From: Thermoplasmatales archaeon
GTDB lineage: Archaea > Thermoplasmatota > E2 > DHVEG-1
Length of the DNA: 50,931 nucleotides
Direction of reading: 5' to 3'
NCBI GenBank assembly: GCA_041304825.1
Contig: JBFYMQ010000004.1
Span: forward strand, 1-50,931
Both the position numbers and the translations under genes were made by a program. This document shows positions 4,347-48,118 of this stretch, piece after piece; position 1 is the stretch's first letter, and every line of letters begins with the position of its first letter. The notes below the pieces were generated by a model. That model saw nothing but the letters and a program-made list of their open reading frames with translations. It did no database searches and was not told where the DNA came from.

Positions 4347-6533
4347 TCAATGAAATTCCAAAAGATACCGCAGGAAAGGAAACGCATGAGGAAACCGTTC
4401 AAAAAACCATTTGAAGATAGGTAGGACCGGCTTGTCATAAGAAAACGGTATCTTCACAGATAGCGTTCCCCAGTCGCTCTCAGCACCATGGATATCTTTG
4501 GCTTTCACTTTCACAGAGTACGTCCCTTTCTCAGTCCAATTATGTACCGCTGATTCTTGTACGCCAGAGCTATATGGCCCAAACCATCCACTCGAGGTAT
4601 TATCCCCCCAGTCAACATAATAAAAGACAGTATCCAAATCAGGGTCTGTTGCAACAAAAATATACTTATAGTTCAGGAGAGGTTTGCCCTTCGAAGGCCC
4701 ATATATGTCAGGAGTATTTGGAGGAGCATTGGTCCCAGTAATCAAAGCCCAGGTCGTATCCGTAACGGTGAGATCATCTGCATCGGTGACCGATAACATC
4801 ACGGTGTAATTCCATTCCTCGGAATAGCTATGCGTCGGATTTTGAACAATAGCAGTGTTACCATCACCAAAATCCCAGAAAAAATCATAGGGTGGGTTCC
4901 CATTTTCCGCAGTCCCAGTAAATTGAATCATTTGACCTAATGACCCATAATACGGACCATGGGCATCGACATCAAATCCTAGGATAGTAAAATCAGATTC
5001 AGATATCGCAGAAGCACTTGATTCAGATGTGGTCACAATCACCTTGATCCGGCAATTCTCAGATCCACTCGCACCGATTAGCCATTGATAACATCCATTG
5101 TTCGGAATATCGGTCGCAAGAGGCTCCCATGGACCAGAACCCCCATTACGAGAAAGGAGAATATCGACCGTGGATTCACCCTGAGGCGCGGGAACCGCTG
5201 AAAGCCAGCGGATATTCCGAATGGAGCCGCTTCTGAACGTCTCCCCCCCATGTGGTGATTGTATCAACGCAGACAAACTTGTCGGCTCAAGCCAGGGAGA
5301 AAATGCTTTCAGAATATTTTGATATGAAGGCCAACTGCCTTGTTCAGCCTGTACTACAACATCCTCGCGGCCATCATGATCGAAATCTCCATCGACAAGG
5401 AATCCGGAGAAAGAACCAGGAGATGTCATGGAAAACGAGCCGTCAAGGACCCAATTTCCGTTCCCATCGCCAAGGTAGGAGTACCCAGTTGGACCCACAT
5501 ACCCGACAATATCAAGATATCCATCGCCGTCAATATCACCAAACTGGGGGTAATACTCACCAGATGTTGGAAGACCTGTAGATATCGAATCCCAATCGTT
5601 ATTTTCTCCGTCATAGACATAACAGCGTAGCCCATTGGAACTACTCCCAACCGCAAGATCATCCCAGCCGTCATTGTTCATATCACCGCAGTCCAGACCA
5701 TTCCATAATCCCCCCGGTAGACCAATTTGAGTCATCGTAAAATTGAAAGTCCCATCACCAAAAAAAACATGGGTCCCCTCTCGATTCCCTGCAAAATCAG
5801 GTAACCCATCTGCATTAAAATCAGCGATCTCGAGCATATTATTGTTATTTCCATCTGTTAACACCCAGACCTGTGTCCACGTTCCATCACCATGATTTTG
5901 GTACACATGATACCCGTTGCCATAACCAAATGATTGAGAAATAAGATCAAGCCGACCATTACAATCAAAATCAGCAAGACCACACTCAAACATCCCCCAA
6001 TCTTCCCCACCGGTCCCAAGACCAGTAGCCCAGGGAATCCAATTTGAAGCAGACCCATCACCCAACGCCGCCCCTATCAATGTATCACCAAAACCAGAAC
6101 CCGGGGTGGCATAATTATGATGGATGCCCCACACTACATCAAGGTATCCGTCTAAGTTGAGGTCACCTGCCTCAATGCCACCGTACCCGAAATCCCCGAC
6201 TTGGATGACAGACCAGGTTCCCATCCCATTACCAAGCCACACCATAATCCCATGTTGCGGGCTGTTGATATTCGGAGACCCATGATCACCAACAGAGATA
6301 ACATCTAAATTTCCGTCGTTGTTCATATCAGCAAGTTCGTACTCGGTGTTCCCTCCTTCTTTTGCAGGGGTTTGAAGACCTGTGGATTTCTCAACAAAGG
6401 TAATAGACTTCAAGGGTGATGCAATATCTTTTTGTTGAGAAAAATTACTGCCAGAAAACGAGGTCGCTGTAGAAAAAATAATCACCGCGATAAGAAGAAA
6501 AATTAGACTACTTTTCATTTTTTTATTGTTCAT
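4347..6533 (-). CDS. Secreted FG-GAP/VCBS-repeat (integrin-alpha-like beta-propeller) protein with PKD domains and a conserved C-terminal tail
   Basis: Seven Ca-binding-like repeats (DMNNDGNLDVISVG, GDLNLDGYLDVVWG, ADFDCNGRLDLISQ, ADFNADGLPDFAGN, GDMNNDGWDDLAVG, GDIDGDGYLDIVGY, GDFDHDGREDVVVQ). PKD motifs (FFWDFGDGNTA, YYVDWGDNTSSGW). Signal peptide MNNKKMKSSLIFLLIAVIIFSTA begins at internal ATG 6533 (track start 6599). Tail FERFPHAFPFLRYLLEFH. Confidence 0.85.
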   Translation of the reverse strand: MNNKKMKSSLIFLLIAVIIFSTATSFSGSNFSQQKDIASPLKSITFVEKSTGLQTPAKEGGNTEYELADMNNDGNLDVISVGDHGSPNINSPQHGIMVWLGNGMGTWSVIQVGDFGYGGIEAGDLNLDGYLDVVWGIHHNYATPGSGFGDTLIGAALGDGSASNWIPWATGLGTGGEDWGMFECGLADFDCNGRLDLISQSFGYGNGYHVYQNHGDGTWTQVWVLTDGNNNNMLEIADFNADGLPDFAGNREGTHVFFGDGTFNFTMTQIGLPGGLWNGLDCGDMNNDGWDDLAVGSSSNGLRCYVYDGENNDWDSISTGLPTSGEYYPQFGDIDGDGYLDIVGYVGPTGYSYLGDGNGNWVLDGSFSMTSPGSFSGFLVDGDFDHDGREDVVVQAEQGSWPSYQNILKAFSPWLEPTSLSALIQSPHGGETFRSGSIRNIRWLSAVPAPQGESTVDILLSRNGGSGPWEPLATDIPNNGCYQWLIGASGSENCRIKVIVTTSESSASAISESDFTILGFDVDAHGPYYGSLGQMIQFTGTAENGNPPYDFFWDFGDGNTAIVQNPTHSYSEEWNYTVMLSVTDADDLTVTDTTWALITGTNAPPNTPDIYGPSKGKPLLNYKYIFVATDPDLDTVFYYVDWGDNTSSGWFGPYSSGVQESAVHNWTEKGTYSVKVKAKDIHGAESDWGTLSVKIPFSYDKPVLPIFKWFFERFPHAFPFLRYLLEFH

Positions 6534-6731
6534 TATCAATATCCCCAATCTTAAAATAAAGTAAGTCATTATATAAATATTCTCATATCTTGATTCCATT
6601 TCTTTTTTTTTATTCTAGTAATTAATGATTGAAAGAGAATATCAACATGCAATAATAATTTTCTAAGAATGTGCACAAGTATCTGCATATGCATCTGCAT
6701 ATACCGATTGAAGTTGAGTGCCTTCTGTTGA

Positions 6732-19749: not shown

Positions 19750-19759
19750 CAGACGGAAA

Positions 19760-25153: not shown

Positions 25154-26323
25154 ATGTATTGTATGAAGGAAAAAAAAATCATACCACTTATTGTAGCAGT
25201 TGTGCTCGTCGGTGTATCGTGCTTCTCCGGCTGTGTCGGACCGTGGGCAATCGATACACTTGGTTGGGAACATATTAATCTTGAAGGAACTTCTGTCAGA
25301 ATCTGGGGACAGCTGACGATAAGTGAATCTGCGGATAACTGGAATGAAGGATTCGTCTGGGACACTGAATCCCATCAGAATTGGGAGGATTATGCATATC
25401 GTGAATGGGCAGATAACCATGGAGGTTTAGGGCTGTATTCACTCGATATCGATAGCCTCTCCAGAACCACAGAATATCACTATAGAGCATTTGGAGAATA
25501 CACCAAAGGAAAGAGCCAATATCGCGTTGGAGCAGACCTGACATTCATTCCTGGTGGACCACGAGTAGTTACCGATAACGCAACCAATATCGGTCTTACA
25601 CAAGCAACACTCACTGGTAATCTCTGGCACATGGGTGGAGCTGCATCCTGCACCGTCTATTTCCTTTATGGAACCGATATACAATCACTTAACCAACAAA
25701 CCCCACCAGTAACAATGACCTCAGTAGGACCATTCAACGCACCACTGACCAGCCTGGCTACGAATACCACCTATTATTACAAGGCTGTTGCAGAAAATGA
25801 TGCTGATACATGGTCCGGGATTATCCTATCGGTCACACCGGGACAACCCCTTATCATATCCCGACAACCTGGGGAAATCAGTATGAACCATGCGATACTG
25901 AAAGGAGAACTGTGGAACACTGGTGGAACAGCAACATGTACCGTCTGGTTCGTCTACAGCGACGTCAACCCCAATCAACTTGATCAATCCACCCCGCATC
26001 AACTTATGAACGCAACCGGCCCATTCCAGGCATATATCGGAAATCTCTCTGCAAGCACAACCTATTGGTACAGAGCGGTTGGTGACAATGGCTTCGCACA
26101 AGGAAAAGGAGATATCATCGAATTCAGTACCACACCAACAGCAGAAATCAGAACAACTGGTGAGCTTGGAAAACCATACCAACCAAACAAATATACCCTT
26201 GATGACGAGCTTGCCTCTCGAATCCCTGCTCGTTATCTCCAGCTCCTGCAAAAATATCCGATACTACTAAAATTATTACAACAACCACGCATACGGGCTT
26301 TTCTAATGGGGCTTCATCAATAA
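25154..26323 (+). CDS. Lipoprotein-like secreted protein with three tandem FN3-like domains and a variant C-terminal tail
   Basis: N-terminus KKIIPLIVAVVLVGVSCFSGC (lipobox-like). Repeats TLTGNLWHMGGAASCTVYFLYGTD..TTYYYKAVAEN and ILKGELWNTGGTATCTVWFVYSD..TTYWYRAVGDN, plus a divergent first copy. Tail KYPILLKLLQQPRIRAFLMGLHQ. Confidence 0.7.
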   Translation: MYCMKEKKIIPLIVAVVLVGVSCFSGCVGPWAIDTLGWEHINLEGTSVRIWGQLTISESADNWNEGFVWDTESHQNWEDYAYREWADNHGGLGLYSLDIDSLSRTTEYHYRAFGEYTKGKSQYRVGADLTFIPGGPRVVTDNATNIGLTQATLTGNLWHMGGAASCTVYFLYGTDIQSLNQQTPPVTMTSVGPFNAPLTSLATNTTYYYKAVAENDADTWSGIILSVTPGQPLIISRQPGEISMNHAILKGELWNTGGTATCTVWFVYSDVNPNQLDQSTPHQLMNATGPFQAYIGNLSASTTYWYRAVGDNGFAQGKGDIIEFSTTPTAEIRTTGELGKPYQPNKYTLDDELASRIPARYLQLLQKYPILLKLLQQPRIRAFLMGLHQ

Positions 26324-36925: not shown

Positions 36926-36927
36926 GG

Positions 36928-38642: not shown

Positions 38643-38795
38643 CTCATTTCACATCCTCATCCTATCATCTAAATATGTATCCATTTGAGGCCTATAATTT
38701 TTTAGCCGACGGTGATTTATGAAAATACTATTAAAAGAACAGACTATTCATAGCAAAAAAGATAGTCAACAGACAAGCGAATAGGAGACGTTCGA

Positions 38796-39110
38796 ATGAA
38801 GAAAATACGAATTACCGTCCTTAAGACTCTGGTGCAAAAAGAGTTTCAATCATACTGCGGTGTCCCCCTGGAAAAATGCCCCTGCCATTCGGAAGGACAA
38901 GTGTATTTCACCACATACGATAAACCCGAAGGATTTTGCGATTGGGCCTGGAAGGATATCCATCCGTACATCGTATCATTTTTAACAGGAGGGAATTTCA
39001 CAAAAGACATCTTCGAAGACTGGATGAAAGATAAGGATACCATGATTGCGTGCTGTACCGATGGGATACGACCCGTTATCTTTGAAATAAAGTTAATAAC
39101 TAATAAATAG
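38796..39110 (+). CDS. TIGR04076-like small Cys-containing protein
   Basis: MKKIRITVLK.., CPCHSEGQVYF, KPEGFCDWAWKDIHPYI..LTGGNF, ACCTDGIRPVIFEI match my recollection of the TIGR04076 family pattern. Confidence 0.5.
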   Translation: MKKIRITVLKTLVQKEFQSYCGVPLEKCPCHSEGQVYFTTYDKPEGFCDWAWKDIHPYIVSFLTGGNFTKDIFEDWMKDKDTMIACCTDGIRPVIFEIKLITNK

Positions 39111-39161
39111 TAAAAATCTTTGTTCGATGAAATTCTTACTTAAATAAAGGGATTGAAACCT

Positions 39162-40268
39162 ATGACTACACAGAACAAAAAATTCCCTCAAGATCTCCTA
39201 ATTTTTGATGCGCACTGTGACACCGTCCACGACCTCGTCAATCCATCCATCGATTTTAGGAAAAGAAACCAAGGCCATGTCGATCTAAAAAAGATTCAGA
39301 AAGGCGGATTGAAAGCACAGATCTTCGCACTCTACGTCAATCCTGTCTATGCGCCACATCGATCGATCAAAAAAGCTTTGTTGCTGTATCAAACACTTGA
39401 GAAAAAGATTTTTTCCCCAGGATACGGAATCAAGGTAACCTCGACTGCTGAAATGGACTGTGCTGTGAAAAAAAACAAACTCGCCTGCTGGCTGTCTCTA
39501 GAAGGTGGACATATCATTGAAAACTCATTTGAGATCCTTGAGCTCTTTTCTTCACTTGGGATCCGTAGTATGACCCTGACTCATATGAAAAACACTGACT
39601 GGGCGGATTCCTCAGCGGATTCTCCTCGATGGGATGGACTGAACGCACTTGGAAAAAAGATCGTTGCACGCATGCAGGAACTTCATATGATTATCGATGT
39701 CTCTCATGCATCAGATAAAACCGTCGAGGATGTCCTGGATGTCACAGCAGCTCCGTTCATGGCATCTCATTCGAATGCACGGGCGTTATGCGACATCCCG
39801 CGCAACTTACCTGATGATCTCATAAAGGAAATCGCAGATAGGAACGGCTATATTGGCGTGAATTTTTTCCCGGTTTTTCTGAAGAAAACCATTTTTGACC
39901 AAGTAAGTAAAAACGTTGAAAAATATGAACATCAGCATCAGGAAATGCTGCAACAGAAAAGAGACGACCCTGATTTTGTCAGCAAGGCAGAATCAACGCT
40001 GTTCCAAAAGTATGTAGACGGCTCTGATAATGTTGATGTGAATGCGGTCATTGACCATATCGATCATATCTCCGATATTGGCGGAATAGATTGCGTTGGC
40101 CTAGGAAGTGATTTTGATGGGATAAACACCACTCCTACTAATTTAACCGATGTCTCCTGTTACCCTACATTGGTGGAAGGATTAGCTTTAAGAGGATATA
40201 ACACCAAGGAAATCCAGAAGATCATGGGTTTGAATCTCTATCGTTTTTTAAAACAATTTGATCTGTGA
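39162..40268 (+). CDS. Membrane dipeptidase (peptidase family M19, renal-dipeptidase-like)
   Basis: IFDAHCDT, WLSLEGGH, MTLTHMKNTDWADS, IIDVSHASDKT, MASHSNARAL, VGLGSDFDGI. Track start is TTG 39153. Confidence 0.9.
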   Translation: MTTQNKKFPQDLLIFDAHCDTVHDLVNPSIDFRKRNQGHVDLKKIQKGGLKAQIFALYVNPVYAPHRSIKKALLLYQTLEKKIFSPGYGIKVTSTAEMDCAVKKNKLACWLSLEGGHIIENSFEILELFSSLGIRSMTLTHMKNTDWADSSADSPRWDGLNALGKKIVARMQELHMIIDVSHASDKTVEDVLDVTAAPFMASHSNARALCDIPRNLPDDLIKEIADRNGYIGVNFFPVFLKKTIFDQVSKNVEKYEHQHQEMLQQKRDDPDFVSKAESTLFQKYVDGSDNVDVNAVIDHIDHISDIGGIDCVGLGSDFDGINTTPTNLTDVSCYPTLVEGLALRGYNTKEIQKIMGLNLYRFLKQFDL

Positions 40269-40319
40269 TTGAGACAAGGGGAATAAATATTTACGGAAAG
40301 AATTGTTCCATGGAATAGA

Positions 40320-40709
40320 ATGATACGTATTCTTAAAAAAAAAATGGACGTCCAAAAAGAGGACACAATCTCAGTCGTCATAACCCTCTGCTTGCTGCTA
40401 ATCTGGTATCTTACTCTTGTCTTGTTCAACTACCCCTTAGCAAGCCTCTTATTTCTCTGGGTCGGGATGATCGTCTTATCGATAGTCTATTACATCGTCT
40501 ATAGGAAGAAAAAGCGTGATATGAGGATATTCAAAATACGGTTCTTTGTATCAGCAGTACCAATCTATTCCGCACTCATTTTTTATGTGATTGCCTTGCT
40601 ATACGGAAAAGGGATGCCCAGTATTTTTCGATTCATGCCCATTGGCATCATCGGAACCATGTTGCTCCTTAACGCAGGAGTGGTCTATTGTTTTTCTCAA
40701 AGCAAATGA
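40320..40709 (+). CDS. Small 4-TM membrane protein, unknown function
   Basis: Hydrophobic segments VVITLCLLLIWYLTLVLF, LLFLWVGMIVLSIVYYIVY, FFVSAVPIYSALIFYVIALLY, IGIIGTMLLLNAGVVYCF. Confidence 0.5.
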   Translation: MIRILKKKMDVQKEDTISVVITLCLLLIWYLTLVLFNYPLASLLFLWVGMIVLSIVYYIVYRKKKRDMRIFKIRFFVSAVPIYSALIFYVIALLYGKGMPSIFRFMPIGIIGTMLLLNAGVVYCFSQSK

Positions 40710-40834
40710 CTCGATTTTACTTGCTCTTATACTTTTTCCAAGGTTATCTTTGGCTTGAAATTCTCTCAAAATATTTTAACCTTGTGACCGAAAAACATCA
40801 CCGGTTCTCATCCCGCATATTTTATATACACTAG

Positions 40835-41989
40835 ATGATTTTATCGCTCCCCATGGATTTTGACTTGACAAATAATTCAGTAGTCACTTATACACCCTTA
40901 GCAGGATACACCCTCCCCAACCTCTTTCGAATACTTGCACAGAACCACTTCCACATTAGCCCTCGGTACGCAGCACGGTTTGCCTACAGTATGGCTCTTA
41001 GTACTATCATGAGTCCGTTCTATATCAGAGAACGTGTTAAATATGACAAATCCACCGAAGCAACACCAATTAAAAAAGACCCGATTTTCATTATTGGTCA
41101 TTGGCGCTGCGGAACGACACTCATGCATAACATCCTGGCACGGGACCAACAGTTCGGGTACTTCACGACCTGTCAAACCCTGATTCCTTCTATTTTTATC
41201 AGCGGTGAAAAACTCTTCAAGCCTATCGTTGTCGCAAGTCTTCCAAAGAAACGACCGATGGATGACGGAGACCTCGGTGCAGATCTCCCTCAAGAAGATA
41301 TCTACGCTCTTGGTGCGCTCTCCCCGTACTCATACTACCACGGTTGGTGCTTCCCTCGGAATATGGCACATTACAACAACTACATTGATTTTAAGAACGC
41401 CTCCCCGCAGACCATTGAAGACTGGAAAAATACCTACCTGTTCCTTTTAAAAAAAATAACCATGTTCCACCAAGGTAAACAGCTGATCTTGAAGAATCAG
41501 GATAACACGGGGAAGATACCGCAACTTTTGGAGATGTTCCCGGACGCGAAATTCATTTACATGTACCGCAACCCCTATGATCTTTACATGTCCATGCTGA
41601 AGTTCATGCGAAAGGTCATCCCGCTGTACTGCGTACAAACCCCACCACCTCTGAAGGACGTTGAAGATTATATGATGACTTTATTTACACATATGACAAA
41701 GAAATACCTCCAGGATAAACCTCTCATCCCTGAGGAGAACCTTGTGGAAGTGCGGTATGAAAGCTTCATCAATCAACCGCTGGTCTCCGTCAGTACCCTT
41801 TATAAAAAATTCAACCTCGATGGATACCAAGACATCGAGCATTCCATGAAAGCGTATCTTGCGACACAGAAAACAATTCATATGGACAACTATACCTTCA
41901 CCGATTCGATAAAAAAGAAAATCGAGAACCATTGGGGCTTCGCACTCAAAGAATACCAATACAAACATCCGCAGGAAGAAATCTGCTAA
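40835..41989 (+). CDS. Cytoplasmic PAPS-type sulfotransferase family protein
   Basis: 5'-phosphosulfate-binding loop IFIIGHWRCGTTLMHNIL. Later block FIYMYRNPYDLYMSML. No signal peptide. Confidence 0.75.
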   Translation: MILSLPMDFDLTNNSVVTYTPLAGYTLPNLFRILAQNHFHISPRYAARFAYSMALSTIMSPFYIRERVKYDKSTEATPIKKDPIFIIGHWRCGTTLMHNILARDQQFGYFTTCQTLIPSIFISGEKLFKPIVVASLPKKRPMDDGDLGADLPQEDIYALGALSPYSYYHGWCFPRNMAHYNNYIDFKNASPQTIEDWKNTYLFLLKKITMFHQGKQLILKNQDNTGKIPQLLEMFPDAKFIYMYRNPYDLYMSMLKFMRKVIPLYCVQTPPPLKDVEDYMMTLFTHMTKKYLQDKPLIPEENLVEVRYESFINQPLVSVSTLYKKFNLDGYQDIEHSMKAYLATQKTIHMDNYTFTDSIKKKIENHWGFALKEYQYKHPQEEIC

Positions 41990-42044
41990 ATGGATTCCAT
42001 AAAAAAGTTTCAAATCACGTCTGAAAAAAAAGTTGAAATCGTTT

Positions 42045-42386
42045 TTATCCCACTGTCTTTGACTGATTATAACTATTTTTTATAAACGATATTATTTTCT
42101 TTAGGTCAGATGTTTCATCAACTGGTATTTGTGGCCACCCCTTCATTATCCTCGTTGCTGCTTGGAAGGGTTTAATCATAAATTCTTGGGATAATTTCAT
42201 TTTATCTTGTTCACTTGCTTTCGTAAGAACCACACCATCTGTTACGAGAAATCCAAATAATTTATCATTATATTTGTAACAAGGACACCCATACATTTTT
42301 TTTGTTGTCACATCAGGCCAACTCAGAATCTCTTTTTCCAATCTCACTCTGAGATTCTTCATTTTTTCTTCATTGTAATATTGCAT
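42045..42386 (-). CDS. TfoX-N/YjbR-like small protein (weak assignment)
   Basis: VTTKKMYGCPCYKYNDKLFGFLVTDGVVLTK resembles the MFGG.gy..ng.mFa.i.dd.lylK block of TfoX_N/YjbR-type folds. Confidence 0.35.
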   Translation of the reverse strand: MQYYNEEKMKNLRVRLEKEILSWPDVTTKKMYGCPCYKYNDKLFGFLVTDGVVLTKASEQDKMKLSQEFMIKPFQAATRIMKGWPQIPVDETSDLKKIISFIKNSYNQSKTVG

Positions 42387-42420
42387 GGTAACATGTTATG
42401 ATTTATGATATTAATAAAGA

Positions 42421-42586
42421 GATGCTTCCATCCTGATTGCGTACCAAGACTTCAGAATCCCCCCAGGCGGGAGAATTGAAGGTCTGGCAGAAAATATTCC
42501 GGGGGGATTGCTTGCTAGAGGTTCAATGCCCATCCAATATTTTGTCGATTTTAAGAAACCAGAGAGAAAGCATTGACACGGTTTTC
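42421..42586 (+). repeat. Intergenic structured repeat, copy A (core 42439-42535 plus trailing motif AGCATTGACACGGTTTTC)
   Basis: Aligns by eye with copies at 48119-48269 and 49036-49190. Shared string ..CCAAGACTTCAGA..GGGAGA..TGAAGGTCTGGCAGAAAAT..GATTGCTTGCTAGAGGTTCAATGCCC. Confidence 0.7.
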
Positions 42587-42600
42587 CCTTAGGAGCGAAA

Positions 42601-42628
42601 AGCAAAAAAAAGAAAAAAAGAGGTGGAG
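42601..42628 (-). terminator. Oligo-T terminator (minus strand) after ASST-like copy 1
   Basis: Plus-strand agcaaaaaaaagaaaaaaagagg reads as T7-8 runs on the minus strand directly after the stop at 42629. Confidence 0.55.
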
Positions 42629-43858
42629 TTAGAATCCCATGAGATGCCGAAGCAAGGGGAATGCATGTGGAAATCGCACAAGTAACCTCGCAAGAAACCC
42701 ATGCTGTTCGATATTATGGCTAAACGGTGTGGTGAGCGTGACAGGGATCATGCAGTAATCGCTACTGTTATCCTTATTGACTATTGTGATATTTCCTTGG
42801 AACCCTGCGTTCTTCTCCGGGGGTACAACCATGTACACATGTACGGTCACTGACCCCTGTGCCGGTGTAATGTTCTCACCGGACGACGGTTTGAACGTCC
42901 ACGCCCCCCATGTCAATGTATTGTTCACGGTCCAGTTCAGCAGCGAGTCGTTATCCCCGATGTTCATCACCTGGAAACTGCCATGCACAGTCGCCCCTGG
43001 TTTGATGTTCGACCAAGAGAGGCTCCCGTTGCATTCGAGATCAGGGAGATGCTGCTGTGGGGGCGGTGGTGGTTCATACGGTGGTATGTACTGGGTGCGG
43101 TAGACTTCGGCATGTTGGTACGGATAAGGGTTAACGAAGGTCCAGACGATTTGTTTGTCTGGTGTGACCTCGATGAAAACCCCGTTCCATCCGGAGCAGA
43201 TAAGGGTATTGTTGTTGAGCATTCGTTGGGCACCGCCAAAGCCGTCGGAGAAGAGGTCTTCCGGCAGCATATACTGCCAGGTGAGATCAGCTGGGCCATA
43301 GGTTCCTCCAGGCGGAAGATAGTATTCGCCAGTGTCGTTGTTTACATCGGGGGTGATTTCATCGACGCTTGAGATAGGGCCTCCAGGGCGGGTGTTGCCG
43401 TTTGAGAAGACAAGGATGTGTCCTGCGCCGGGAAGACCAGGTTTGACCCAGCAGCATTGATGTTGGAAGCAGAGTTTTTTATCACTAGCGTCTCCTCGAT
43501 CGTAGGTCTGGGGGTTACCCCAGCGGTAGAGCAGATCACCACCGTGGCCGTAAATGCCGCCCTCGTGGCTTGCCGCTTCCTCAGTAGTTGTACTGTGATC
43601 GATGATCCAGACCTCGTCAAAATTATGAGCACTGATGAGGACTTGGTCAAACTGCGGGTTGTAGTCCACGGAGTTGAAATAAGGCCAGCCAGGGCTCCAG
43701 TATTGGTCGAAGTTGATGTTGGCAAGTTCAGGATACTGGCTGACAATACCGTAGTTGTCTTTGCTAGCGTCAAAATCCTGGATGAGGTGGTCCCAGACGT
43801 GCCATTCCCAGACAATGTCGCCGCTGGTTGGTCCGGTCTGGTGGACCTGGATGAGCAT
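42629..43858 (-). CDS. Arylsulfotransferase (ASST)-like beta-propeller protein, copy 1, downstream ORF (C-terminal ~3/4) with Pro-rich linker, Ig/CARDB-like domain and conserved tail
   Basis: GDIVWEWHVWDHL, NSVDYNPQFDQVLISAHNFDEVWIIDHSTTTEEAASHEGGIYGHGGDLLYRWGNPQTYDRG and CFQHQCCWV..ILVFSNGN match the ASST family pattern. Tail VRFPHAFPLLRHLMGF. It lacks its own signal peptide; that is encoded by the upstream out-of-frame ORF. Confidence 0.75.
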   Translation of the reverse strand: MLIQVHQTGPTSGDIVWEWHVWDHLIQDFDASKDNYGIVSQYPELANINFDQYWSPGWPYFNSVDYNPQFDQVLISAHNFDEVWIIDHSTTTEEAASHEGGIYGHGGDLLYRWGNPQTYDRGDASDKKLCFQHQCCWVKPGLPGAGHILVFSNGNTRPGGPISSVDEITPDVNNDTGEYYLPPGGTYGPADLTWQYMLPEDLFSDGFGGAQRMLNNNTLICSGWNGVFIEVTPDKQIVWTFVNPYPYQHAEVYRTQYIPPYEPPPPPQQHLPDLECNGSLSWSNIKPGATVHGSFQVMNIGDNDSLLNWTVNNTLTWGAWTFKPSSGENITPAQGSVTVHVYMVVPPEKNAGFQGNITIVNKDNSSDYCMIPVTLTTPFSHNIEQHGFLARLLVRFPHAFPLLRHLMGF

Positions 43859-44247
43859 ATTTGGGTAGAATTGTCATGAGTCGCGTAACTGCTGTCTCGT
43901 GTATAGTGATATTCCCAGAGAACTGTACTATCATAGGCGATTTTTTGGAATCCACCTTGACCGGAATCGATAGCGAGGAAAATGGAACCATTCTCCCCCA
44001 TGTAGGAGTCATATAAGGGGTAATAGGCACTCTGCCAGGTGTGGTTGACGGCACCGGTTTCATTGATGAGATACGTCGTCTTCGAATGCCACGGGGTGTA
44101 GAGGAAGTGGCCTTCCTTGCGATCGAGCGGCAAAGGTTGTATCAGGTTCTCTATGTTCTGTGAAAGAGCTCCGGAATTGAACAGACTCGCCGTGAAAAGG
44201 GTAGCGGTAATCAGCACCACGATTTTAACGAAAATCTTATGGCTCAT
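43342..44247 (-). CDS. ASST-like copy 1, upstream ORF: signal peptide plus first propeller part (only 43859-44247 is homologous; the rest is an out-of-frame S/T-rich read-through)
   Basis: MSHKIFVKIVVLITATLFTASLF.., HFLYTPWHSKTTYLINETGAVNHTWQS..YATHD. The frame then departs (STQICSSRSTRP..) exactly where the downstream ORF's homology begins (FYPN-MLIQVHQ). Confidence 0.6.
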   Translation of the reverse strand: MSHKIFVKIVVLITATLFTASLFNSGALSQNIENLIQPLPLDRKEGHFLYTPWHSKTTYLINETGAVNHTWQSAYYPLYDSYMGENGSIFLAIDSGQGGFQKIAYDSTVLWEYHYTRDSSYATHDNSTQICSSRSTRPDQPAATLSGNGTSGTTSSRILTLAKTTTVLSASILNLPTSTSTNTGALAGLISTPWTTTRSLTKSSSVLIILTRSGSSITVQLLRKRQATRAAFTATVVICSTAGVTPRPTIEETLVIKNSASNINAAGSNLVFPAQDTSLSSQTATPALEALSQASMKSPPM

Positions 44248-44368
44248 GTCTCATCCTCATTTGAAATTTTTAAACAGGAAGGGTGCTTCGTGTTCTATCC
44301 AGTTGCCAACATGCACGAACGCTGGTTTCGGTATAGATATCCCCTTTAATGTAGTAAGGCTCCGGGGG

Positions 44369-44382
44369 ATATATAAAAATAT
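44369..44382 (-). promoter_or_regulatory. TATA-like box (minus strand TTTTTATATAT) upstream of ASST-like copy 1
   Basis: Lies ~120 nt upstream of ATG 44247 within the duplicated, highly conserved non-coding segment. GAGGATGAG RBS-like sequence lies 5 nt before the ATG. Confidence 0.4.
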
Positions 44383-44480
44383 GCCTGATTTTCTTTAATA
44401 ATCACAATATTAATGACTGCCTCAGACTTTTTATGTGACTCTTAAACGATTCATTAGATTATTCCCTTTAGAAATTATAT

Positions 44481-44599
44481 GTCCTAGGATTTCTGGACCC
44501 TTACCTGCAGAGAAGTGAATATTTAATAGAAAAAGCTTCTGGGAAATTGCTTATTCGAGGTTCGAGGCTACCCAATTAAAGAGCATTGACATGGTTTTC
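44481..44599 (+). repeat. Intergenic structured repeat, copy D (degenerate; 3' module and trailing AGCATTGACATGGTTTTC conserved)
   Basis: GGGAAATTGCTTATTCGAGGTTCGAGGCTACCC aligns with the 3' module of the other copies. The 5' half is strongly diverged. Confidence 0.5.
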
Positions 44600-44600
44600 T

Positions 44601-44622
44601 TAATAAGAAAAAAAATTTGGGT
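44601..44622 (-). terminator. Oligo-T terminator (minus strand) after ASST-like copy 2
   Basis: Plus-strand agaaaaaaaattt reads as a T8 run on the minus strand right after the stop at 44623. Confidence 0.55.
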
Positions 44623-45864
44623 TCAGTACCCCAGCAGATGTCGTAGGAGTGAAAATCCATGCGGGAATCGCTCGAACAACCACGAAATGATCAGGTTGTT
44701 GGATAGGGCTGTTACACTGGCTGAGGTCGTCAAAGTGACCGGGATGTCGACGTAGTCGGAGGCGTTGTCCCTGTTCTCTACGCGGAGGGTTCCATCAAAC
44801 ATCTGGTTTTTCTCGTTTGGGACTACAACGTACACCTGTACAGTGAAGGGCCCTGCCCCCGGGAAGAGGTTTGCCCCAGATGCAGGGATAAACGTCCACG
44901 TCCCCCAGGTGATGGTGTTGTTAATAGTCCAGTTCAGCAACGAGTCGTTATCCCCGATGTTCATCACCTGGAAACTGCCATGCACAGTCGCCCCTGGTTT
45001 GATGTTCGACCAAGAGAGGCTCCCGTTGCATTCGATATCAGGGTGAGACGGCGGGGGTGGCGGTGGTGGTGGCGGTGGCACATACGGGGGTATGTATTGG
45101 GTGCGGTAGACTTGGTCGTATTGATTCGGGTAGGGGTTGATGAAGGTCCAGACCACTTCCATTTCTGGTGTGACCTCGATGAAAACCCCGTTCCATCCGG
45201 AGCAGATAAGGGTATTGTTGTTGAGCATTCGTTGGGCACCGCCAAAATAGTAGGAATAGAGGTCTTCCGGCAGCATATACTGCCAGGTGAGATTATCCGG
45301 GCCATAGGTTCCCCCAGGCGGAAGATAGTATGCACCCGTGTCATTGTCGACATCAGGAGTGAACTCATCGACGCTTGAGATAGGGCCTCCAGGGCGGGTT
45401 ACGCCGTTGGAGAAGACGAGGATGTTACCTGCACCGGGAAGACCAGGTTTGATCCAGCCGCTTTGATGTTGGAAGCAGAGTTTTTTATCACTAGCGTCCC
45501 CTCTATCGTAGGTCTGGGGGTTGCCCCAGCGGTAGATCAGATCGCCACCGTGGCCGTAAATGCCGCCCTCGTGGCTTGCGGCTTCTTCTGTTGTAGTGCT
45601 GTGGTCGATAACCCAGACCTCATCGAAGTTGTGGGCGCTGATGAGGATTTGGTCGAACTTGGGGTTGTAGTCCACAGAGGTAAAATAGGGCCAGCCGGTG
45701 CACCAAGGTTGGTCGAAGTTGATGTTGGCAAGTTCAGGATGCTGACTGATATTACCATAGTTATTTTTGCTAGCGTCGAAATCCTGGATGAGGTGGTCCC
45801 AGACGTGCCATTCCCAGACAATGTCGCCGCTGGTTGGTCCGGTCTGGTGGACCTGGATGAGCAT
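44623..45864 (-). CDS. ASST-like protein, copy 2, downstream ORF (C-terminal ~3/4) with poly-Pro linker, Ig-like domain and conserved tail
   Basis: Collinear with ORF 42629..43858 and roughly 85% identical at the protein level by eye. Linker PPYVPPPPPPPPPPSHPD. Tail FERFPHGFSLLRHLLGY. Confidence 0.75.
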   Translation of the reverse strand: MLIQVHQTGPTSGDIVWEWHVWDHLIQDFDASKNNYGNISQHPELANINFDQPWCTGWPYFTSVDYNPKFDQILISAHNFDEVWVIDHSTTTEEAASHEGGIYGHGGDLIYRWGNPQTYDRGDASDKKLCFQHQSGWIKPGLPGAGNILVFSNGVTRPGGPISSVDEFTPDVDNDTGAYYLPPGGTYGPDNLTWQYMLPEDLYSYYFGGAQRMLNNNTLICSGWNGVFIEVTPEMEVVWTFINPYPNQYDQVYRTQYIPPYVPPPPPPPPPPSHPDIECNGSLSWSNIKPGATVHGSFQVMNIGDNDSLLNWTINNTITWGTWTFIPASGANLFPGAGPFTVQVYVVVPNEKNQMFDGTLRVENRDNASDYVDIPVTLTTSASVTALSNNLIISWLFERFPHGFSLLRHLLGY

Positions 45865-46247
45865 ATTTGGGTAGAATGAGTGGCGTAGCTGCTATCTCGT
45901 GTGTAGCGGTAATCCCAGAGGATTGTGCCGTCGTACGCAATTTTTTGGATTCCACCTCGGCCTGATTGGATGGTGAGGTAGATGGAGCCGTTATCTCCCA
46001 TATAAGAGTCATATAAGGGGTAATAGGTACTCTGCCATGTGTGGTTGACGACGCCGGTTTCATTGATGAGATAGGTGGTCTTCGAATGATATGGGGTGTA
46101 GAGGAAGTGGCCTTCATTGCGATCGAATGGTGGAGGTGTTATCAGGTTCTCCATCTTCTGTGAAAGAGCTCCGGAATTGAATAGACTCGCCGTAAAAAGG
46201 GCGGCGGTAATCAGCGCTACGATTTTGATATAATTCTTCTTGTTCAT
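45537..46247 (-). CDS. ASST-like copy 2, upstream ORF (signal peptide plus first propeller part; only 45865-46247 is homologous)
   Basis: MNKKNYIKIVALITAALFTASLF.., same architecture and same frame break as copy 1 (..YATH | STQICSSRSTRP.. versus FYPN-MLIQVHQ). Confidence 0.6.
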   Translation of the reverse strand: MNKKNYIKIVALITAALFTASLFNSGALSQKMENLITPPPFDRNEGHFLYTPYHSKTTYLINETGVVNHTWQSTYYPLYDSYMGDNGSIYLTIQSGRGGIQKIAYDGTILWDYRYTRDSSYATHSTQICSSRSTRPDQPAATLSGNGTSGTTSSRISTLAKITMVISVSILNLPTSTSTNLGAPAGPILPLWTTTPSSTKSSSAPTTSMRSGLSTTALQQKKPQATRAAFTATVAI

Positions 46248-46368
46248 GTCTCATCCTCATTTGAAATCTTTAAACAGGAAGGATACTTCGTGTTCTATCC
46301 AGTTGCCAACATGCACGAACGCTGGTTTTGGTATAGATATCCTCCTTAATGTAGTAAGGCTCCGGGGG

Positions 46369-46382
46369 ATATATAAAAATAT
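46369..46382 (-). promoter_or_regulatory. TATA-like box upstream of ASST-like copy 2 (duplicate of 44369-44382)
   Basis: Identical ggggatatataaaaatatgcc context. Confidence 0.4.
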
Positions 46383-46496
46383 GCCTGATTTTCTTTAATA
46401 ATCACAATATTAATGACTGTCTCAGACTCTTTACGTTACTCTCAAATGATTCCTCTGTGGAGTTTTTACGTAGAGACCCAAAGTCTCTTTGCTACC

Positions 46497-48029
46497 TCAT
46501 CGCTTTAAAATGGAGAGGATGAGAATTTGCGTACCCTCGGCAATTTTGGTCGCTTCGCCGACCATCGTGGTTACCTGGATGCCGCCAAGACCGAAGAACA
46601 TGCCAGTCCCGATCGTCTTTGTCTCTCCGACGGCGACGTCGACAGTCCCACTTACGGTATGGTTCATCCGGTGAAGGATGCCGCCCTGGACATGGACCTG
46701 CCATGGGACATTGGTCGCGTTCGCGGTCCCGTTATTGGTGATCTTCACATGGATGCCTAGGCCACCTGTAGCCGTGAATGAGAGTTCGGGCGTTCCATGC
46801 TCTTGTGCGAATTTTATCACCCAGACGTCACCGTTGTAGTACCCGGTGGACGACCCAGCGATGATATACCCGCCGTCACTAGTCTGTTGTCCACCGGTGA
46901 ACGGCATGGGGATTGTGATGTTCCATGCTTCGTTCCCGGAGCTGTCGGTCTTGATGAGCCCGTAGCCGGTCGCGATGTAGCCGCCATCTGTTGTCTGTTT
47001 CGCGGAGTAGCCAAAGAACGTTGCATCATTCAGAAACGGGGTATTACGCCATGTTTCATTGCCGTTTGTGTCGGTCTTTAACAAACACCCTAGGTAATTC
47101 ATCGCTCCTGCGATGATGAAGCCGCCGTCGCATGTCTGTTGCACCGAGTTGCCGTAGTTCTTTAATCCGACGCGGACTTGGCCGTTGGTTTCCTCGAATT
47201 TTTTATCCCAAACCACGATGCCGCTGGCATCTGTTTTGATAAGCCAGATTTTTCCCCAGTCTGTGTCGTAGTTGCAATCAGACATCCCTGTGAGGATGTA
47301 CCCGCCGTTTGAAGTCTCTTGGACCATGTGACCTTCTTCATCCATGTCGCTTACTCCGTAAGTTCTCAGCCATTGAATGGCTCCATCTGAGAATGTCTTC
47401 AAGAGGTACATGTCTGGAGAGCCGTCGGTGCTTGCATTGCCACCGCCGGTCGCGATGTATCCGCCGTCGCGGGTCTGTCGAACACAGAAGCACCATGAGT
47501 AGTTCAGGCCAGCGTACGTCCTGTTCCATTCCTCATTCCCCTGGGAGTCTGTTTTGATGAGCACAGTCGAGGAGATGAATCCAATCTTGGATTTTAGCGT
47601 CGCATTAAAGAACGTGCACCCAAGGATGTATCCGTCGTCAGCAGTCTGTTGGACTGACCATATCTTCCCTGAGACCGACGGGAGAGTATAGTAATCAAAC
47701 GTCTTGTTCCACTCCATGGTTCCATTGGAGTCGGTCTTGATCAGCCATGGGTTCCAGAGAGCGATACCGAAAGATTTCGCGTACCCCGCGATGATGTATC
47801 CTCCATCGTTGGTCTGTTGTATGTCATAGGCGGCATCATCGATATTTGGGCCACCAAACGTCTTATTCCATTCCTCCGCTGGAGGAATCCCTCCCAGCAT
47901 TTCTGGACGACCATCAGAAACGGTAAGATGCTGATTCGAACCACCACTGATGCACGAGGTGATACACACACCAAGCAACAAGACAAGCATTTCGAAGACA
48001 ACGCTTTTTTTAACAATGTCTCTAGTCAT
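46497..48029 (-). CDS. Secreted/lipoprotein-like beta-propeller repeat protein (about 7-8 repeats) with C-terminal Ig/CARDB-like domain
   Basis: Repeats of Q(Q/T)T.DGGYI(I/A/L).G......(W/Y)L(I/L)KTD..G...W(N/R).T (TNDGGYIIAGY, TADDGYILGC, TRDGGYIATGG, TSNGGYILTGM, TCDGGFIIAGA, TTDGGYIATGY, TSDGGYIIAGS). Signal/lipobox-like MTRDIVKKSVVFEMLVLLLGVCITSC from ATG 48029 (GGGAG ~10 nt upstream; track start 48083). Confidence 0.75.
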   Translation of the reverse strand: MTRDIVKKSVVFEMLVLLLGVCITSCISGGSNQHLTVSDGRPEMLGGIPPAEEWNKTFGGPNIDDAAYDIQQTNDGGYIIAGYAKSFGIALWNPWLIKTDSNGTMEWNKTFDYYTLPSVSGKIWSVQQTADDGYILGCTFFNATLKSKIGFISSTVLIKTDSQGNEEWNRTYAGLNYSWCFCVRQTRDGGYIATGGGNASTDGSPDMYLLKTFSDGAIQWLRTYGVSDMDEEGHMVQETSNGGYILTGMSDCNYDTDWGKIWLIKTDASGIVVWDKKFEETNGQVRVGLKNYGNSVQQTCDGGFIIAGAMNYLGCLLKTDTNGNETWRNTPFLNDATFFGYSAKQTTDGGYIATGYGLIKTDSSGNEAWNITIPMPFTGGQQTSDGGYIIAGSSTGYYNGDVWVIKFAQEHGTPELSFTATGGLGIHVKITNNGTANATNVPWQVHVQGGILHRMNHTVSGTVDVAVGETKTIGTGMFFGLGGIQVTTMVGEATKIAEGTQILILSILKR

Positions 48030-48118
48030 GAAATCATACTCCCTTAATCTTCTGATGAATGTTATAATATCAGGAAGATTCATTTAAATGTTTGGAATCA
48101 ATAAAAATAAGAGATGAA

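What the first reader, a model, noticed from the sequence alone, without database searches (positions are those of the whole stretch)
42629..44680. Conserved C-terminal tail RFPH(A/G)F(P/S)(F/L)LR(H/Y)L(L/M)(G/E)(F/Y) shared by otherwise unrelated secreted proteins
Three secreted proteins end, right at the stop codon, with nearly the same 15-18 residues:
- FERFPHAFPFLRYLLEFH (FG-GAP/PKD protein, nt 4350-4403).
- VRFPHAFPLLRHLMGF (ASST-like copy 1, nt 42632-42679).
- FERFPHGFSLLRHLLGY (ASST-like copy 2, nt 44626-44676).

The FG-GAP protein has no other similarity to the ASST proteins. A looser variant, KYPILLKLLQQ..FLMGLHQ, ends the FN3-repeat protein (nt 26252-26320).

The tail is too short and too polar to be a TM helix followed by a basic cluster. 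It therefore does not look like the tripartite PGF-, PEF- or LPXTG-type sorting signals. It could be an amphipathic membrane or S-layer anchoring peptide, or a recognition tag for a processing or sorting enzyme, possibly one of the nearby cysteine peptidases.
Basis: partly seen in the sequence, partly recalled or inferred. Interest (0 to 1): 0.65.

Follow-up and report, generated by a model that had tools for sequence, protein, structure and literature searches.

The report
New C-terminal anchoring tag in sediment archaea
Unrelated secreted proteins of the widespread sediment archaea Thermoprofundales (MBG-D), many of them protein-degrading enzymes, end in the same roughly 25-residue two-helix tail, which no database or paper describes and which most likely holds them on the cell surface.

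Summary
Three minus-strand genes end in ..[FL]-x-R-F-P-H-[AG]-F-[PS]-x-L-R-x-L-[LM]-x-[FY], two to three residues before the stop. A tail HMM finds nothing else in the window.

The tail is not confined to these paralogs. An exhaustive profile search of 1.84 billion representative proteins found 694 clusters. All 150 listed matches end 0-6 residues from the C-terminus. Genome scans found about 160 carriers in about 35 uncultured Thermoplasmatota MAGs, including published Thermoprofundales (MBG-D) genomes. Carriers have Sec-type signal peptides and no other membrane segment. They span unrelated families: PKD, beta-propellers, NosD, FG-GAP, ASST, and C25, C1, C10 and S8 peptidases.

Synonymous codons vary at conserved residues, so selection acts on the peptide. 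The tail has no transmembrane helix and no basic end. It is predicted as two short amphipathic, aromatic-rich helices joined by an FP(H/N)AFP turn. Classical PGF-CTERM-type signals occur in the same MAGs, so this is a second, separate signal. No Pfam or NCBIfam model and no paper matches it.

Best reading: a surface-retention tag. Whether its target is the membrane interface or a receptor, and whether it is cleaved, remain unresolved.

Caveat: both ASST genes are interrupted by deletions in this window. They are intact in another assembly.

The parts
4350..4418 (-). Tail of the FG-GAP/PKD protein: IFKWFFERFPHAFPFLRYLLEFH. The stop codon is at 4347-4349.
   Evidence: Translation. Tail HMM 40.0 bits. 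AF2 predicts helix 104-112, an FPHAF turn and helix 118-126.
4419..4448 (-). Ten-residue linker PFSYDKPVLP between the last PKD strand (..LSVKI) and the tail.
   Evidence: Tail alignment shows the conserved P-x-S-Y-x-x-P spacer. PDB 4XED, a PKD construct, ends at the equivalent ..VTMP.
4347..6599 (-). Carrier 1: secreted FG-GAP repeat plus two PKD domains, 750 aa as the longest ORF. The likely start is the internal MNNKKMKSS.. signal peptide.
   Evidence: Pfam FG-GAP_3 6e-29 and PKD_4 3e-15. The identical protein occurs on three JGI metagenome contigs.
42632..42700 (-). Tail of ASST-like copy 1: GFLARLLVRFPHAFPLLRHLMGF. The stop codon is at 42629-42631.
   Evidence: HMM 39.9 bits. Orthologs in other MAGs and metagenomes keep the L-L-V-R-F-P variant.
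42629..43858 (-). Carrier 2, downstream ORF (409 aa): ASST-like beta-propeller part, Pro-rich linker, Ig-like domain and tail.
   Evidence: Pfam Arylsulfotrans 6e-07. It is 78% identical to copy 2.
43342..44247 (-). Carrier 2, upstream ORF. It holds the signal peptide MSHKIFVKIVVLITATLFTASLFNSGALSQ and the N-terminal ASST part. It leaves the gene's frame at the 43872/43873 junction, where 101 nt are missing relative to L198.
44626..44694 (-). Tail of ASST-like copy 2: LIISWLFERFPHGFSLLRHLLGY. The stop codon is at 44623-44625.
   Evidence: HMM 33.4 bits.
44623..45864 (-). Carrier 3, downstream ORF (413 aa), ASST-like.
45537..46247 (-). Carrier 3, upstream ORF with the signal peptide. The frame is lost at junction 45876/45877, where 107 nt are missing relative to L198.
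26228..26320 (+). C-terminus of the FN3-like protein, ARYLQLLQKYPILLKLLQQPRIRAFLMGLHQ. It is a possible short-form relative of the tail, not established.
   Evidence: No tail-HMM hit. Conserved among its own orthologs. Comparable short forms occur after PKD domains elsewhere.

Best explanation
The tail is a lineage-specific, modular C-terminal surface-retention tag of Thermoprofundales (MBG-D) and closely related Thermoplasmatota.

Proposed mechanism:
1. The carrier is exported through Sec by an ordinary N-terminal signal peptide.
2. After export, the last 23-25 residues fold into two short amphipathic, aromatic-rich helices. The consensus is F-L-E-W-L-F-E-R-F and P-I-L-R-x-L-L-G-Y, hinged by the nearly invariant F-P-(H/N)-A-F-P turn.
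3. This hairpin lies in the outer face of the cytoplasmic membrane. It acts as a non-covalent, monotopic anchor and stays on the mature protein.
4. A roughly 10-residue linker and an Ig-like or PKD stalk hold the catalytic or binding domain just above the cell surface. Extracellular peptidases and other enzymes are therefore not lost to the sediment.

Shown: modularity, strict C-terminal position, Sec-type carriers with no other anchor, selection at the peptide level, absence of a TM helix and of a basic end, amphipathicity, and coexistence with PGF-CTERM-type signals.

Inferred: that the tail anchors the protein, that the target is the membrane interface, and that the tail is not removed.
For: Position:
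- Every in-frame archaeal match lies 0-12 residues from a stop, mostly with 2-3 residues after the final L-L. All 70 tails in the first 80 loci lie within 0-7 residues.
- Of HMM hits at 25 bits or more in the archaeal loci and window, 172 of 175 end within 8 residues of the C-terminus.
- All 150 listed hits of the exhaustive search end 0-6 residues from the C-terminus. That search found 694 clusters at E<=1e-3.
- Bacterial matches to the same DNA pattern sit at random positions, mostly in short or out-of-context ORFs. They serve as an internal control.

Carriers:
- 104 of 113 full-length carriers have an N-terminal signal-like hydrophobic stretch.
- Only 1 has a lipobox-like motif, 1 a Tat-like motif, and none an internal TM-grade segment. 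Without the tail they would be soluble.
- They belong to unrelated families: PKD 50, beta-propeller 20, NosD 7, ASST 5, FG-GAP 4, peptidases C25 3, C1 3, C10 2 and S8 1, and beta-lactamase 2.

Selection: conserved residues use mixed synonymous codons, including both Arg and both Leu codon families.

Physical properties:
- The maximum Kyte-Doolittle 19-residue window is 1.35, and none reaches 1.6.
- The helical hydrophobic moment is 0.59 against 0.38 for shuffled sequences.
- The Wimley-White interfacial energy is -2.5 kcal/mol, against +3.4 for control C-termini.
- Aromatic content is 23% against 12%.

Structure: AF2 gives a confident PKD domain (pLDDT above 93). The tail forms two helices at pLDDT 61-77, well below the PKD domain. 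A second, low-confidence model in a different domain context also gives two helices.

No partner nearby: no conserved partner gene lies next to tail genes. Tail genes are scattered around complete chromosomes.

Degenerate and short-form variants keep the helix-Pro-helix pattern but not the sequence. This suggests a physico-chemical role.
Against: - The main form is conserved far more strictly than simple lipid-binding helices usually are. R-F-P-(H/N)-A-F-P-(I/L)-L-R is close to invariant, and Arg is hardly ever replaced by Lys. That pattern is typical of motifs read by one protein partner.
- Part of this conservation reflects ascertainment, because the genome scans required F-P-[HN]-A-F-P.
- There is no experimental evidence for membrane binding or for retention of the tail.
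- The envelope architecture of these uncultured archaea is unknown. A membrane-proximal anchor under an S-layer would limit access to large detrital substrates.
- AF2 confidence for the tail is only moderate.
Confidence: 0.4

Rival explanations
1. Docking tag. The hairpin is a mini 'dockerin' that binds non-covalently to one conserved envelope receptor or scaffold, such as an S-layer or membrane protein. This would display many different hydrolases together on the cell surface.
For: - Residue-specific conservation is near invariant, including Pro, Ala, His/Asn and Arg (not Lys), across hundreds of unrelated carriers.
- About twelve large hydrophobic side chains in 22 residues need a burial partner. 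AF2 models the tail at much lower confidence than the PKD domain, and the preceding domain differs among carriers.
- The carriers are mostly hydrolases and binding modules, as in cellulosomes.
- PGF-CTERM-type proteins in the same MAGs could supply the anchored receptor.
Against: - No candidate receptor was identified, and no conserved neighbour exists.
- The tail is much shorter than any known docking module.
- Variants with altered or missing FPxAFP persist.
Confidence: 0.25
2. Cleavable sorting signal. The tail is recognised and removed by an unknown dedicated peptidase or transpeptidase, which then attaches the protein covalently to a lipid or glycan. The analogy is with archaeosortase/PGF-CTERM or PorU/T9SS-CTD.
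For: - The strictly C-terminal, strongly conserved short motif on many Sec substrates is the hallmark of sortase-type signals.
- T9SS shows that a non-TM C-terminal signal can be cleaved by a C25-family enzyme (established knowledge). C25-type peptidases are common in these genomes (PMC6461988).
Against: - The tail has no TM helix and no basic cluster to hold the precursor at the membrane.
- No match exists to any CTERM model in NCBIfam, although that library detects PGF-, Heimdall- and Loki-CTERM-like signals in the same MAGs.
- No archaeosortase-, sortase- or rhomboid-like gene lies in the window or next to tail genes.
- C25, C1 and C10 peptidases are cargo, not conserved partners.
- C25 is reported only 'in at least one' of the published MAGs (PMC6461988).
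Confidence: 0.2
3. Self-association or folding element. The hairpins of two or more carriers pack into a helical bundle and oligomerise the proteins, or the tail acts as an intramolecular chaperone or cap for the preceding Ig-like domain.
For: The amphipathic hairpin has exposed hydrophobic faces. The linker to the preceding beta-sandwich has a constant short length.
Against: - The preceding domain differs among carriers (PKD, the ASST Ig-like domain and others).
- The PKD domain of an MBG-D peptidase was crystallised without the tail (4XED), so the tail is not needed for folding.
- Oligomerisation would not explain the restriction to secreted proteins.
Confidence: 0.08
4. No dedicated function. 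The similarity is a leftover of recent duplication or recombination, or the by-product of a conserved DNA element at gene 3' ends.
For: The two ASST copies are recent tandem paralogs. PKD plus tail often travel together as a cassette.
Against: - Synonymous sites are scrambled while the residues are kept.
- There are 694 protein clusters at 50% identity, about 35 MAGs and many unrelated domain families.
- Tails follow their orthologs across genomes.
Confidence: 0.02

Closest known systems
Archaeosortase/exosortase-type C-terminal sorting domains (PGF-CTERM with ArtA; PEF-, PEP-, Loki- and Heimdall-CTERM)
   Same: Both are short, conserved, Pro-containing motifs at the extreme C-terminus of many unrelated Sec-exported surface proteins of one lineage. 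Both often follow Ig-like or PKD spacer domains, occur in many copies per genome and are scattered around the chromosome.
   Different: The tail has no transmembrane helix and no terminal basic cluster. It has no HMM match. The same MAGs also carry genuine PGF-like tripartite signals, so the tail is a separate signal. No cognate enzyme is known.
C-terminal amphipathic-helix membrane anchors, e.g. E. coli PBP5/PBP6 (from general knowledge)
   Same: Both are C-terminal and non-transmembrane. Both are amphipathic helices on an otherwise soluble exported enzyme. Both are non-covalent and need no dedicated machinery.
   Different: Here there are two helices with a rigidly conserved Pro-x-x-x-Pro turn. 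The sequence is conserved far more strongly. The element is shared as a portable module by hundreds of unrelated proteins rather than belonging to one enzyme family.
Dockerin modules of cellulosomal enzymes
   Same: Both are a common C-terminal module on diverse hydrolases and could mediate surface display.
   Different: Dockerins are about 60-70 residues with duplicated Ca-binding loops and a known cohesin partner. The tail is about 25 residues, has no Pfam dockerin match and has no known partner.
T9SS C-terminal domain (CTD) with the PorU sortase
   Same: Both are non-TM C-terminal signals on secreted proteases, including C25 gingipain-type enzymes.
   Different: The CTD is a 70-100-residue beta-sandwich in Bacteroidota, which have an outer membrane. 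The tail is a short helical hairpin in archaea. No CTD model matches it.
PDB 4XED, PKD domain of an M14-like peptidase from the MBG-D single-cell genome SCGC AB-540-F20
   Same: It is 49% identical to the PKD domain that precedes the tail in the window's FG-GAP protein (rmsd 0.6 A against the AF2 model). It shows that the PKD stalk module is shared by different enzymes of this lineage.
   Different: The crystallised construct stops at ..LEVTMP, exactly where the linker and tail would begin. It therefore says nothing about the tail. Whether the parent protein carries the tail could not be checked.

Membership tests
Archaeosortase/exosortase tripartite sorting signals (PGF-, PEF-, PEP-, Loki- and Heimdall-CTERM) | Located at the extreme C-terminus of signal-peptide-bearing proteins, many per genome | tested here: met
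   At least 13 carriers occur on distinct contigs of one MAG (CAYGVY01).
Archaeosortase/exosortase tripartite sorting signals (PGF-, PEF-, PEP-, Loki- and Heimdall-CTERM) | The signature motif is followed by a hydrophobic transmembrane helix | tested here: not met
   The maximum Kyte-Doolittle 19-residue window in the last 30 residues has mean 0.59 and maximum 1.35. None of 158 tails reaches 1.6. Only 8-10 residues follow the FPxAFP motif.
Archaeosortase/exosortase tripartite sorting signals (PGF-, PEF-, PEP-, Loki- and Heimdall-CTERM) | A cluster of basic residues at the very end | tested here: not met
   Tails end in L-L-G-[YFL] or similar.
Archaeosortase/exosortase tripartite sorting signals (PGF-, PEF-, PEP-, Loki- and Heimdall-CTERM) | Match to a curated CTERM model | tested here: not met
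   No NCBIfam or Pfam hit to the tail even at E<=10. Other proteins of the same MAGs match the CTERM models: Heimdall-CTERM at 26.7 bits (cutoff 24), PGF_CTERM below cutoff (21.3 vs 24.5) and Loki-CTERM below cutoff (17.0 vs 19.9).
Archaeosortase/exosortase tripartite sorting signals (PGF-, PEF-, PEP-, Loki- and Heimdall-CTERM) | A co-occurring dedicated archaeosortase or exosortase paralog | not testable with these tools
   Whole genomes could not be profiled. None was seen in the window or in the 6-8 kb loci around carriers.
LPXTG/sortase cell-wall anchors | An LPXTG-like motif followed by a TM helix and a basic tail | tested here: not met
   The motif is absent and there is no TM helix. TIGR01167 does not match the tails.
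T9SS C-terminal domain | A 70-100-residue beta-sandwich CTD | tested here: not met
   The tail is 23-35 residues and predicted helical. No model matches it.
Dockerin | About 60-70 residues with duplicated Ca-binding F-hand segments | tested here: not met
   No Pfam match at E<=10. The length and composition differ.
In-plane amphipathic C-terminal membrane anchors (a functional class, not a homologous family) | A C-terminal amphipathic helix or helices with a high hydrophobic moment, favourable interfacial partitioning and no TM segment | tested here: met
   hydrophobic moment 0.59 against 0.38, and Wimley-White energy -2.5 against +3.4 kcal/mol. predicts helices.
In-plane amphipathic C-terminal membrane anchors (a functional class, not a homologous family) | Demonstrated membrane association that depends on the tail | not testable with these tools
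   This needs liposome or fractionation experiments.

The most novel reading that the evidence does not exclude
The tail is the address label of a previously unrecognised protein-sorting or surface-display system of Thermoprofundales (MBG-D). The system would be separate from archaeosortase/PGF-CTERM. It would have its own, still unidentified receptor or processing enzyme. It would organise the extracellular peptidases and other hydrolases with which these abundant sediment archaea degrade detrital protein.
Probability: 0.3. Interest if true: 0.8.

Novelty: new variant of a known kind. Interest (0 to 1): 0.62.

Why it matters
[quoted passage not shown] They are thought to live by degrading detrital protein with extracellular peptidases (PMC6461988). 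How these uncultured cells keep their secreted enzymes is unknown.

A portable, strongly conserved C-terminal tag on hundreds of secreted protein families has several uses:
- It gives a simple sequence marker for the surface-exposed proteome of the lineage.
- It suggests that the enzymes are cell-attached rather than freely released. This changes how extracellular enzyme activity in sediments should be interpreted.
- It adds a non-tripartite type to the catalogue of prokaryotic C-terminal sorting and anchoring signals.
- If a partner exists, it makes that partner findable by phylogenetic profiling.
- The tag could also serve as a surface-display handle in archaeal biotechnology.

Tried and rejected
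- Known-family assignment. Pfam and NCBIfam scans of the tails and of the full proteins at E<=10 found no model covering the tail. A full-text search for six motif strings found no paper. Other literature searches found no description.
It was repeated with longer tails.
- Partner by neighbourhood. I clustered 1301 ORFs from 171 archaeal loci plus the window. No non-tail family is consistently adjacent. The most frequent neighbours are a B12-type radical SAM-like protein (7 loci), an Lrp/AsnC-like regulator (5 loci) and the TM-anchored cyclophilin (4 syntenic loci). These look incidental.
- Candidate processing enzymes in the window. No sortase-, archaeosortase- or rhomboid-like gene was found. 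The C25 proteins are not specifically linked to the tail.
- The FN3 'looser variant' as a family member was rejected by the HMM. It is kept only as a possible short form.
- A DNA-level repeat as the explanation was rejected by codon analysis.
- A programmed frameshift in the ASST genes was rejected. The breaks are 101- and 107-nt deletions relative to an otherwise identical assembly.
- Exact look-ups of the two split ASST ORFs found nothing on record.
- The second AF2 model (ASST Ig-like domain plus tail, 10 sequences) was too poor to use beyond secondary structure (pLDDT 43).
- The Foldseek search of the PKD-tail model matched only PKD and Ig folds, and nothing for the hairpin.

Full report
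**Observation**

The three tails exist as described, but on the minus strand.
- The 750-aa FG-GAP/PKD protein (4347-6599) ends ..PIFKWFFERFPHAFPFLRYLLEFH*.
- ASST-like copy 1 (42629-43858) ends ..GFLARLLVRFPHAFPLLRHLMGF*.
- ASST-like copy 2 (44623-45864) ends ..LIISWLFERFPHGFSLLRHLLGY*.

A six-frame regex scan finds the strict motif only at these three places, each 3-4 residues from a stop. BLASTP between the FG-GAP and ASST proteins gives one significant segment, the last 44 residues (E 6e-6). The ASST copies are 78% identical paralogs. Within the tails, identical residues are mostly encoded by different codons (7/10, 9/11 and 8/11). The similarity is therefore maintained at the peptide level.

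**Is it more than these paralogs?**

Yes.
- A word-indexed search with the tail alignment found 15 metagenome fragments, both PKD-type and ASST-type. All end in the tail.
- A scan of 185,579 species-representative genomes for [FL][EV]RFP[HN]AFP gave 236 stretches, of which 199 were confirmed by tblastn. All 80 kept loci come from uncultured Thermoplasmatota, Thermoplasmata or Thermoplasmatales MAGs.
About 23 of these are bacterial.
- In the archaeal loci every in-frame match sits 0-12 residues from a stop, mostly with 2-3 residues after the final L-L. The bacterial matches lie at random positions, mostly in short or out-of-context ORFs, and act as an internal negative control.
- An exhaustive hmmsearch with a 35-position tail profile read all 1.84 billion representative proteins. 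It found 694 clusters at E<=1e-3 and 109 at E<=1e-10. In all 150 listed hits the match ends 0-6 residues from the C-terminus.
- An HMM built from 146 unique tails finds only the three known ORFs in the window (40.0, 39.9 and 33.4 bits; the next best is 7.5).

**Who carries it?**

M11B2D, 3300003432D, SG8-52-3 and SM1-50 all have carriers. They are published Thermoprofundales (MBG-D) MAGs (PMC6461988; loci). Single MAGs hold at least 13 (CAYGVY01) or at least 11 (DATMWV01) carriers on distinct contigs, even though both scans were truncated. On complete chromosomes (CP070798.1, CP070724.1) the carriers are scattered.

Of 113 full-length carriers:
- 104 have an N-terminal signal-like hydrophobic stretch.
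- 1 has a lipobox-like motif, 1 a Tat-like motif, and none an internal TM-grade segment.

Pfam on 93 carriers shows unrelated families:
- PKD 50
- PQQ-like and other beta-propellers 20
- NosD/beta-helix 7
- ASST 5
- FG-GAP 4
- Peptidase_C25 3, C1 3, C10 2 and S8 1
- beta-lactamase 2
- fn3 2

Minimal proteins consisting only of signal peptide, PKD and tail also exist (P0175; a 152-aa ORF in L094).

The published MBG-D work lists highly expressed extracellular peptidases annotated as PKD-domain proteins. This is the class of protein that carries the tail here.

**Anatomy**

The consensus over 146 tails is: (last beta-strand)-V-T-M-P, then a roughly 10-residue linker x-S-Y-x-x-P-x-x-x, then F-L-E-W-L-[FL]-E-R-F-P-[HN]-A-F-P-[IL]-L-R-x-L-L-G-[YFL].

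The invariance of F-P-x-A-F-P partly reflects the search patterns. However, the flanking positions, which were not used, are also conserved. These are W/L/F, E, R and L-L-G-Y. The profile-based hits also show the same core: 98 of 147 have FP[HN]AFP[IL]LR, and most of the rest differ at one position.

Across 89 tails the conserved residues use mixed synonymous codons, including CGN and AGR for Arg and CTN and TTR for Leu.

No tail has a TM-grade segment:
- The maximum Kyte-Doolittle 19-residue window is 1.35.
- The two halves have raised helical hydrophobic moments (0.59 and 0.46, against 0.38 and 0.36 for shuffled sequences).
- The Wimley-White interfacial energy is -2.5 kcal/mol, against +3.4 for control C-termini.
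- Aromatic content is 23% against 12%.

AF2 on PKD plus tail with 45 sequences gives a confident PKD domain (pLDDT above 93). The tail forms two helices (residues 104-112 and 118-126) around the FPHAF turn at pLDDT 61-77, well below the domain. A second model in the ASST context is poor (pLDDT 43) but again gives two terminal helices.

The PKD part is 49% identical to PDB 4XED, the PKD domain of an M14-like peptidase from an MBG-D single-cell genome. That construct stops at ..VTMP, just before where the tail would begin.

**Relation to known signals**

No Pfam or NCBIfam model touches the tail, even at E<=10. Pfam hits precomputed with a newer release also show none on these proteins. No paper in the library contains the motif strings.

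The tail fails two defining features of archaeosortase, exosortase or sortase signals: it has neither a TM helix nor a basic end.

The same MAGs also encode proteins with genuine tripartite PGF-type ends, for example ..TPGFEVVAVIAAVAIALILIRRHQ. These give a Heimdall-CTERM hit of 26.7 bits, above the cutoff of 24, and a PGF_CTERM hit of 21.3 bits, just below its 24.5 cutoff. Sarcinarray/MAST proteins are present as well. The tail is therefore a second, distinct C-terminal signal, not this lineage's version of PGF-CTERM.

**Mechanism**

What is shown: Sec-exported, otherwise soluble proteins of many families share a peptide-level-selected, strictly C-terminal, amphipathic helix-turn-helix with no TM segment.

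The most economical reading is a surface-retention tag. I rank the alternatives as follows.
- A non-covalent in-plane membrane anchor (0.40). It is favoured by the physical properties, by the absence of any conserved neighbour, and by degenerate and short variants that keep the helix-Pro-helix pattern but not the sequence.
- A docking tag for a conserved envelope receptor (0.25). It is favoured by the unusually strict residue conservation, including Arg but not Lys.
- A cleaved sorting signal for an unknown enzyme (0.20).
- Oligomerisation or a folding role (0.08).
- No dedicated function (0.02).

I found no support for this. C25, C1 and C10 peptidases are themselves cargo elsewhere. The window's C25 protein (21759-24248) and its PPC-domain protein (27508-31233) lack the tail. 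C25 is not reported as universal in the published MAGs.

**Corrections to the finding**

1. In this window both ASST-like genes are broken. Intact homologs read ..SSYATHDIVPLPNGDI..FYPNML.. (L121, L150). An independent JGI contig (L198) is 100% identical to the window over 43872-47777 and has a single mismatch over 34835-43873. It carries 101 and 107 additional nt at window junctions 43872/43873 and 45876/45877. There the genes encode 573- and 577-aa proteins with a signal peptide and the tail. The window versions put the signal peptide and the tail in different frames. These are either strain-level deletions or assembly errors.

2. The FN3 protein's ending (..LLQKYPILLKLLQQPRIRAFLMGLHQ) is not recognised by the tail HMM. 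It is conserved as such among its own orthologs. Short forms such as ..LMNRFPLIERLLNLL..LFEKLPLLRLIF....LEQFPMLQKLLLFLK and ..LFQRFPLLEKLF.. follow PKD domains in related proteins. A distant 'short-form' relationship is therefore plausible but unproven.

**Limits**

- Taxonomy rests on record titles plus four MAGs tied to Thermoprofundales by one paper.
- The genome scans were pattern-based and truncated, so counts per genome are lower bounds.
- Signal peptides were judged by a hydrophobic-stretch heuristic.
- No whole-genome profiling for a partner was possible.
- There is no experimental evidence on membrane binding or cleavage.

**Verdict**

This is a real and widespread C-terminal tag that appears to be undescribed. 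It is a new, non-tripartite variant of the known class of C-terminal sorting and anchoring signals. It is specific to an ecologically important uncultured archaeal lineage. Its function as a surface-retention tag is likely, but its molecular target is unresolved.

Noticed in passing
window 43872/43873 and 45876/45877 (ASST-like genes 42629-44247 and 44623-46247, minus strand): Both tandem ASST-like paralogs lack the homologous roughly 100-nt segment (101 and 107 nt) that encodes ..IVPLPNGD(I/F)IIIMQEIKS..GRDP... An independent assembly (L198) carries this segment and is otherwise 100% identical. Each deletion causes a frame change. Two near-identical deletions in two paralogs are odd and could be strain variants or assembly errors.
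   Followed up: partly
window 2559-3266 (+) and 3284-3766 (+): Two cyclophilin-type peptidyl-prolyl isomerases lie next to the FG-GAP tail gene (with a dCTP deaminase-like gene between). The first has an N-terminal TM anchor and is probably extracytoplasmic. The arrangement is syntenic in close relatives (L002, L195-L197). A link to the Pro-rich tail turn is pure speculation.
   Followed up: partly
L012:3122-3787(+), L139:613-1119(-), L090:5653-6321(-), L106:4668-5333(+), L102:453-1157(-): The same MAGs encode small secreted proteins with classical PGF-type tripartite C-termini, including sarcinarray/MAST-domain proteins. This implies that an archaeosortase-type system coexists with the new tail.
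   Followed up: partly
PDB 4XED: A solved PKD domain of an M14-like peptidase from the MBG-D single-cell genome SCGC AB-540-F20 is 49% identical to the PKD preceding the tail. The construct ends exactly at ..VTMP. Whether the native protein carries the tail could not be checked.
   Followed up: partly
window 9946-20455 (+): A run of large secreted proteins rich in N-x-S/T sequons. It includes a 1881-aa DUF2341 protein, two tandem paralogs (15725-16846 and 17044-18192), and two proteins with a C-terminal TM helix plus basic end (18400-19749 and 19760-20455). The window thus shows several anchoring styles side by side.
   Followed up: no
window 21759-24248 (+) and 27508-31233 (+): A gingipain-type C25 peptidase with propeptide, and a 1241-aa protein with PPC domains. 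Both have signal peptides but no tail and no C-terminal TM. C25 homologs in other MAGs do carry the tail.
   Followed up: partly
window 46497-48083 (-) and 49254-50849 (-): A repeat protein (..TDGGYI..WNKTF.. repeats) and a second FG-GAP/PKD protein lack the tail. The repeat protein resembles the families that most often carry it elsewhere. The FG-GAP/PKD paralog also lacks an obvious signal peptide as called.
   Followed up: no
loci L148, L192 and others: A B12-binding radical SAM-like protein (7 loci) and an Lrp/AsnC-like regulator (5 loci) recur near tail genes. This is probably coincidental, but the regulator could control secreted peptidase genes.
   Followed up: no
window 25154-26323 (+) and P0163-P0166: The FN3/purple-acid-phosphatase-N-like protein has its own conserved C-terminal amphipathic ending (..LPARYIQLLEKHPMFLKLLQQPRFRALL..). 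This may represent a second, shorter type of tail.
   Followed up: partly
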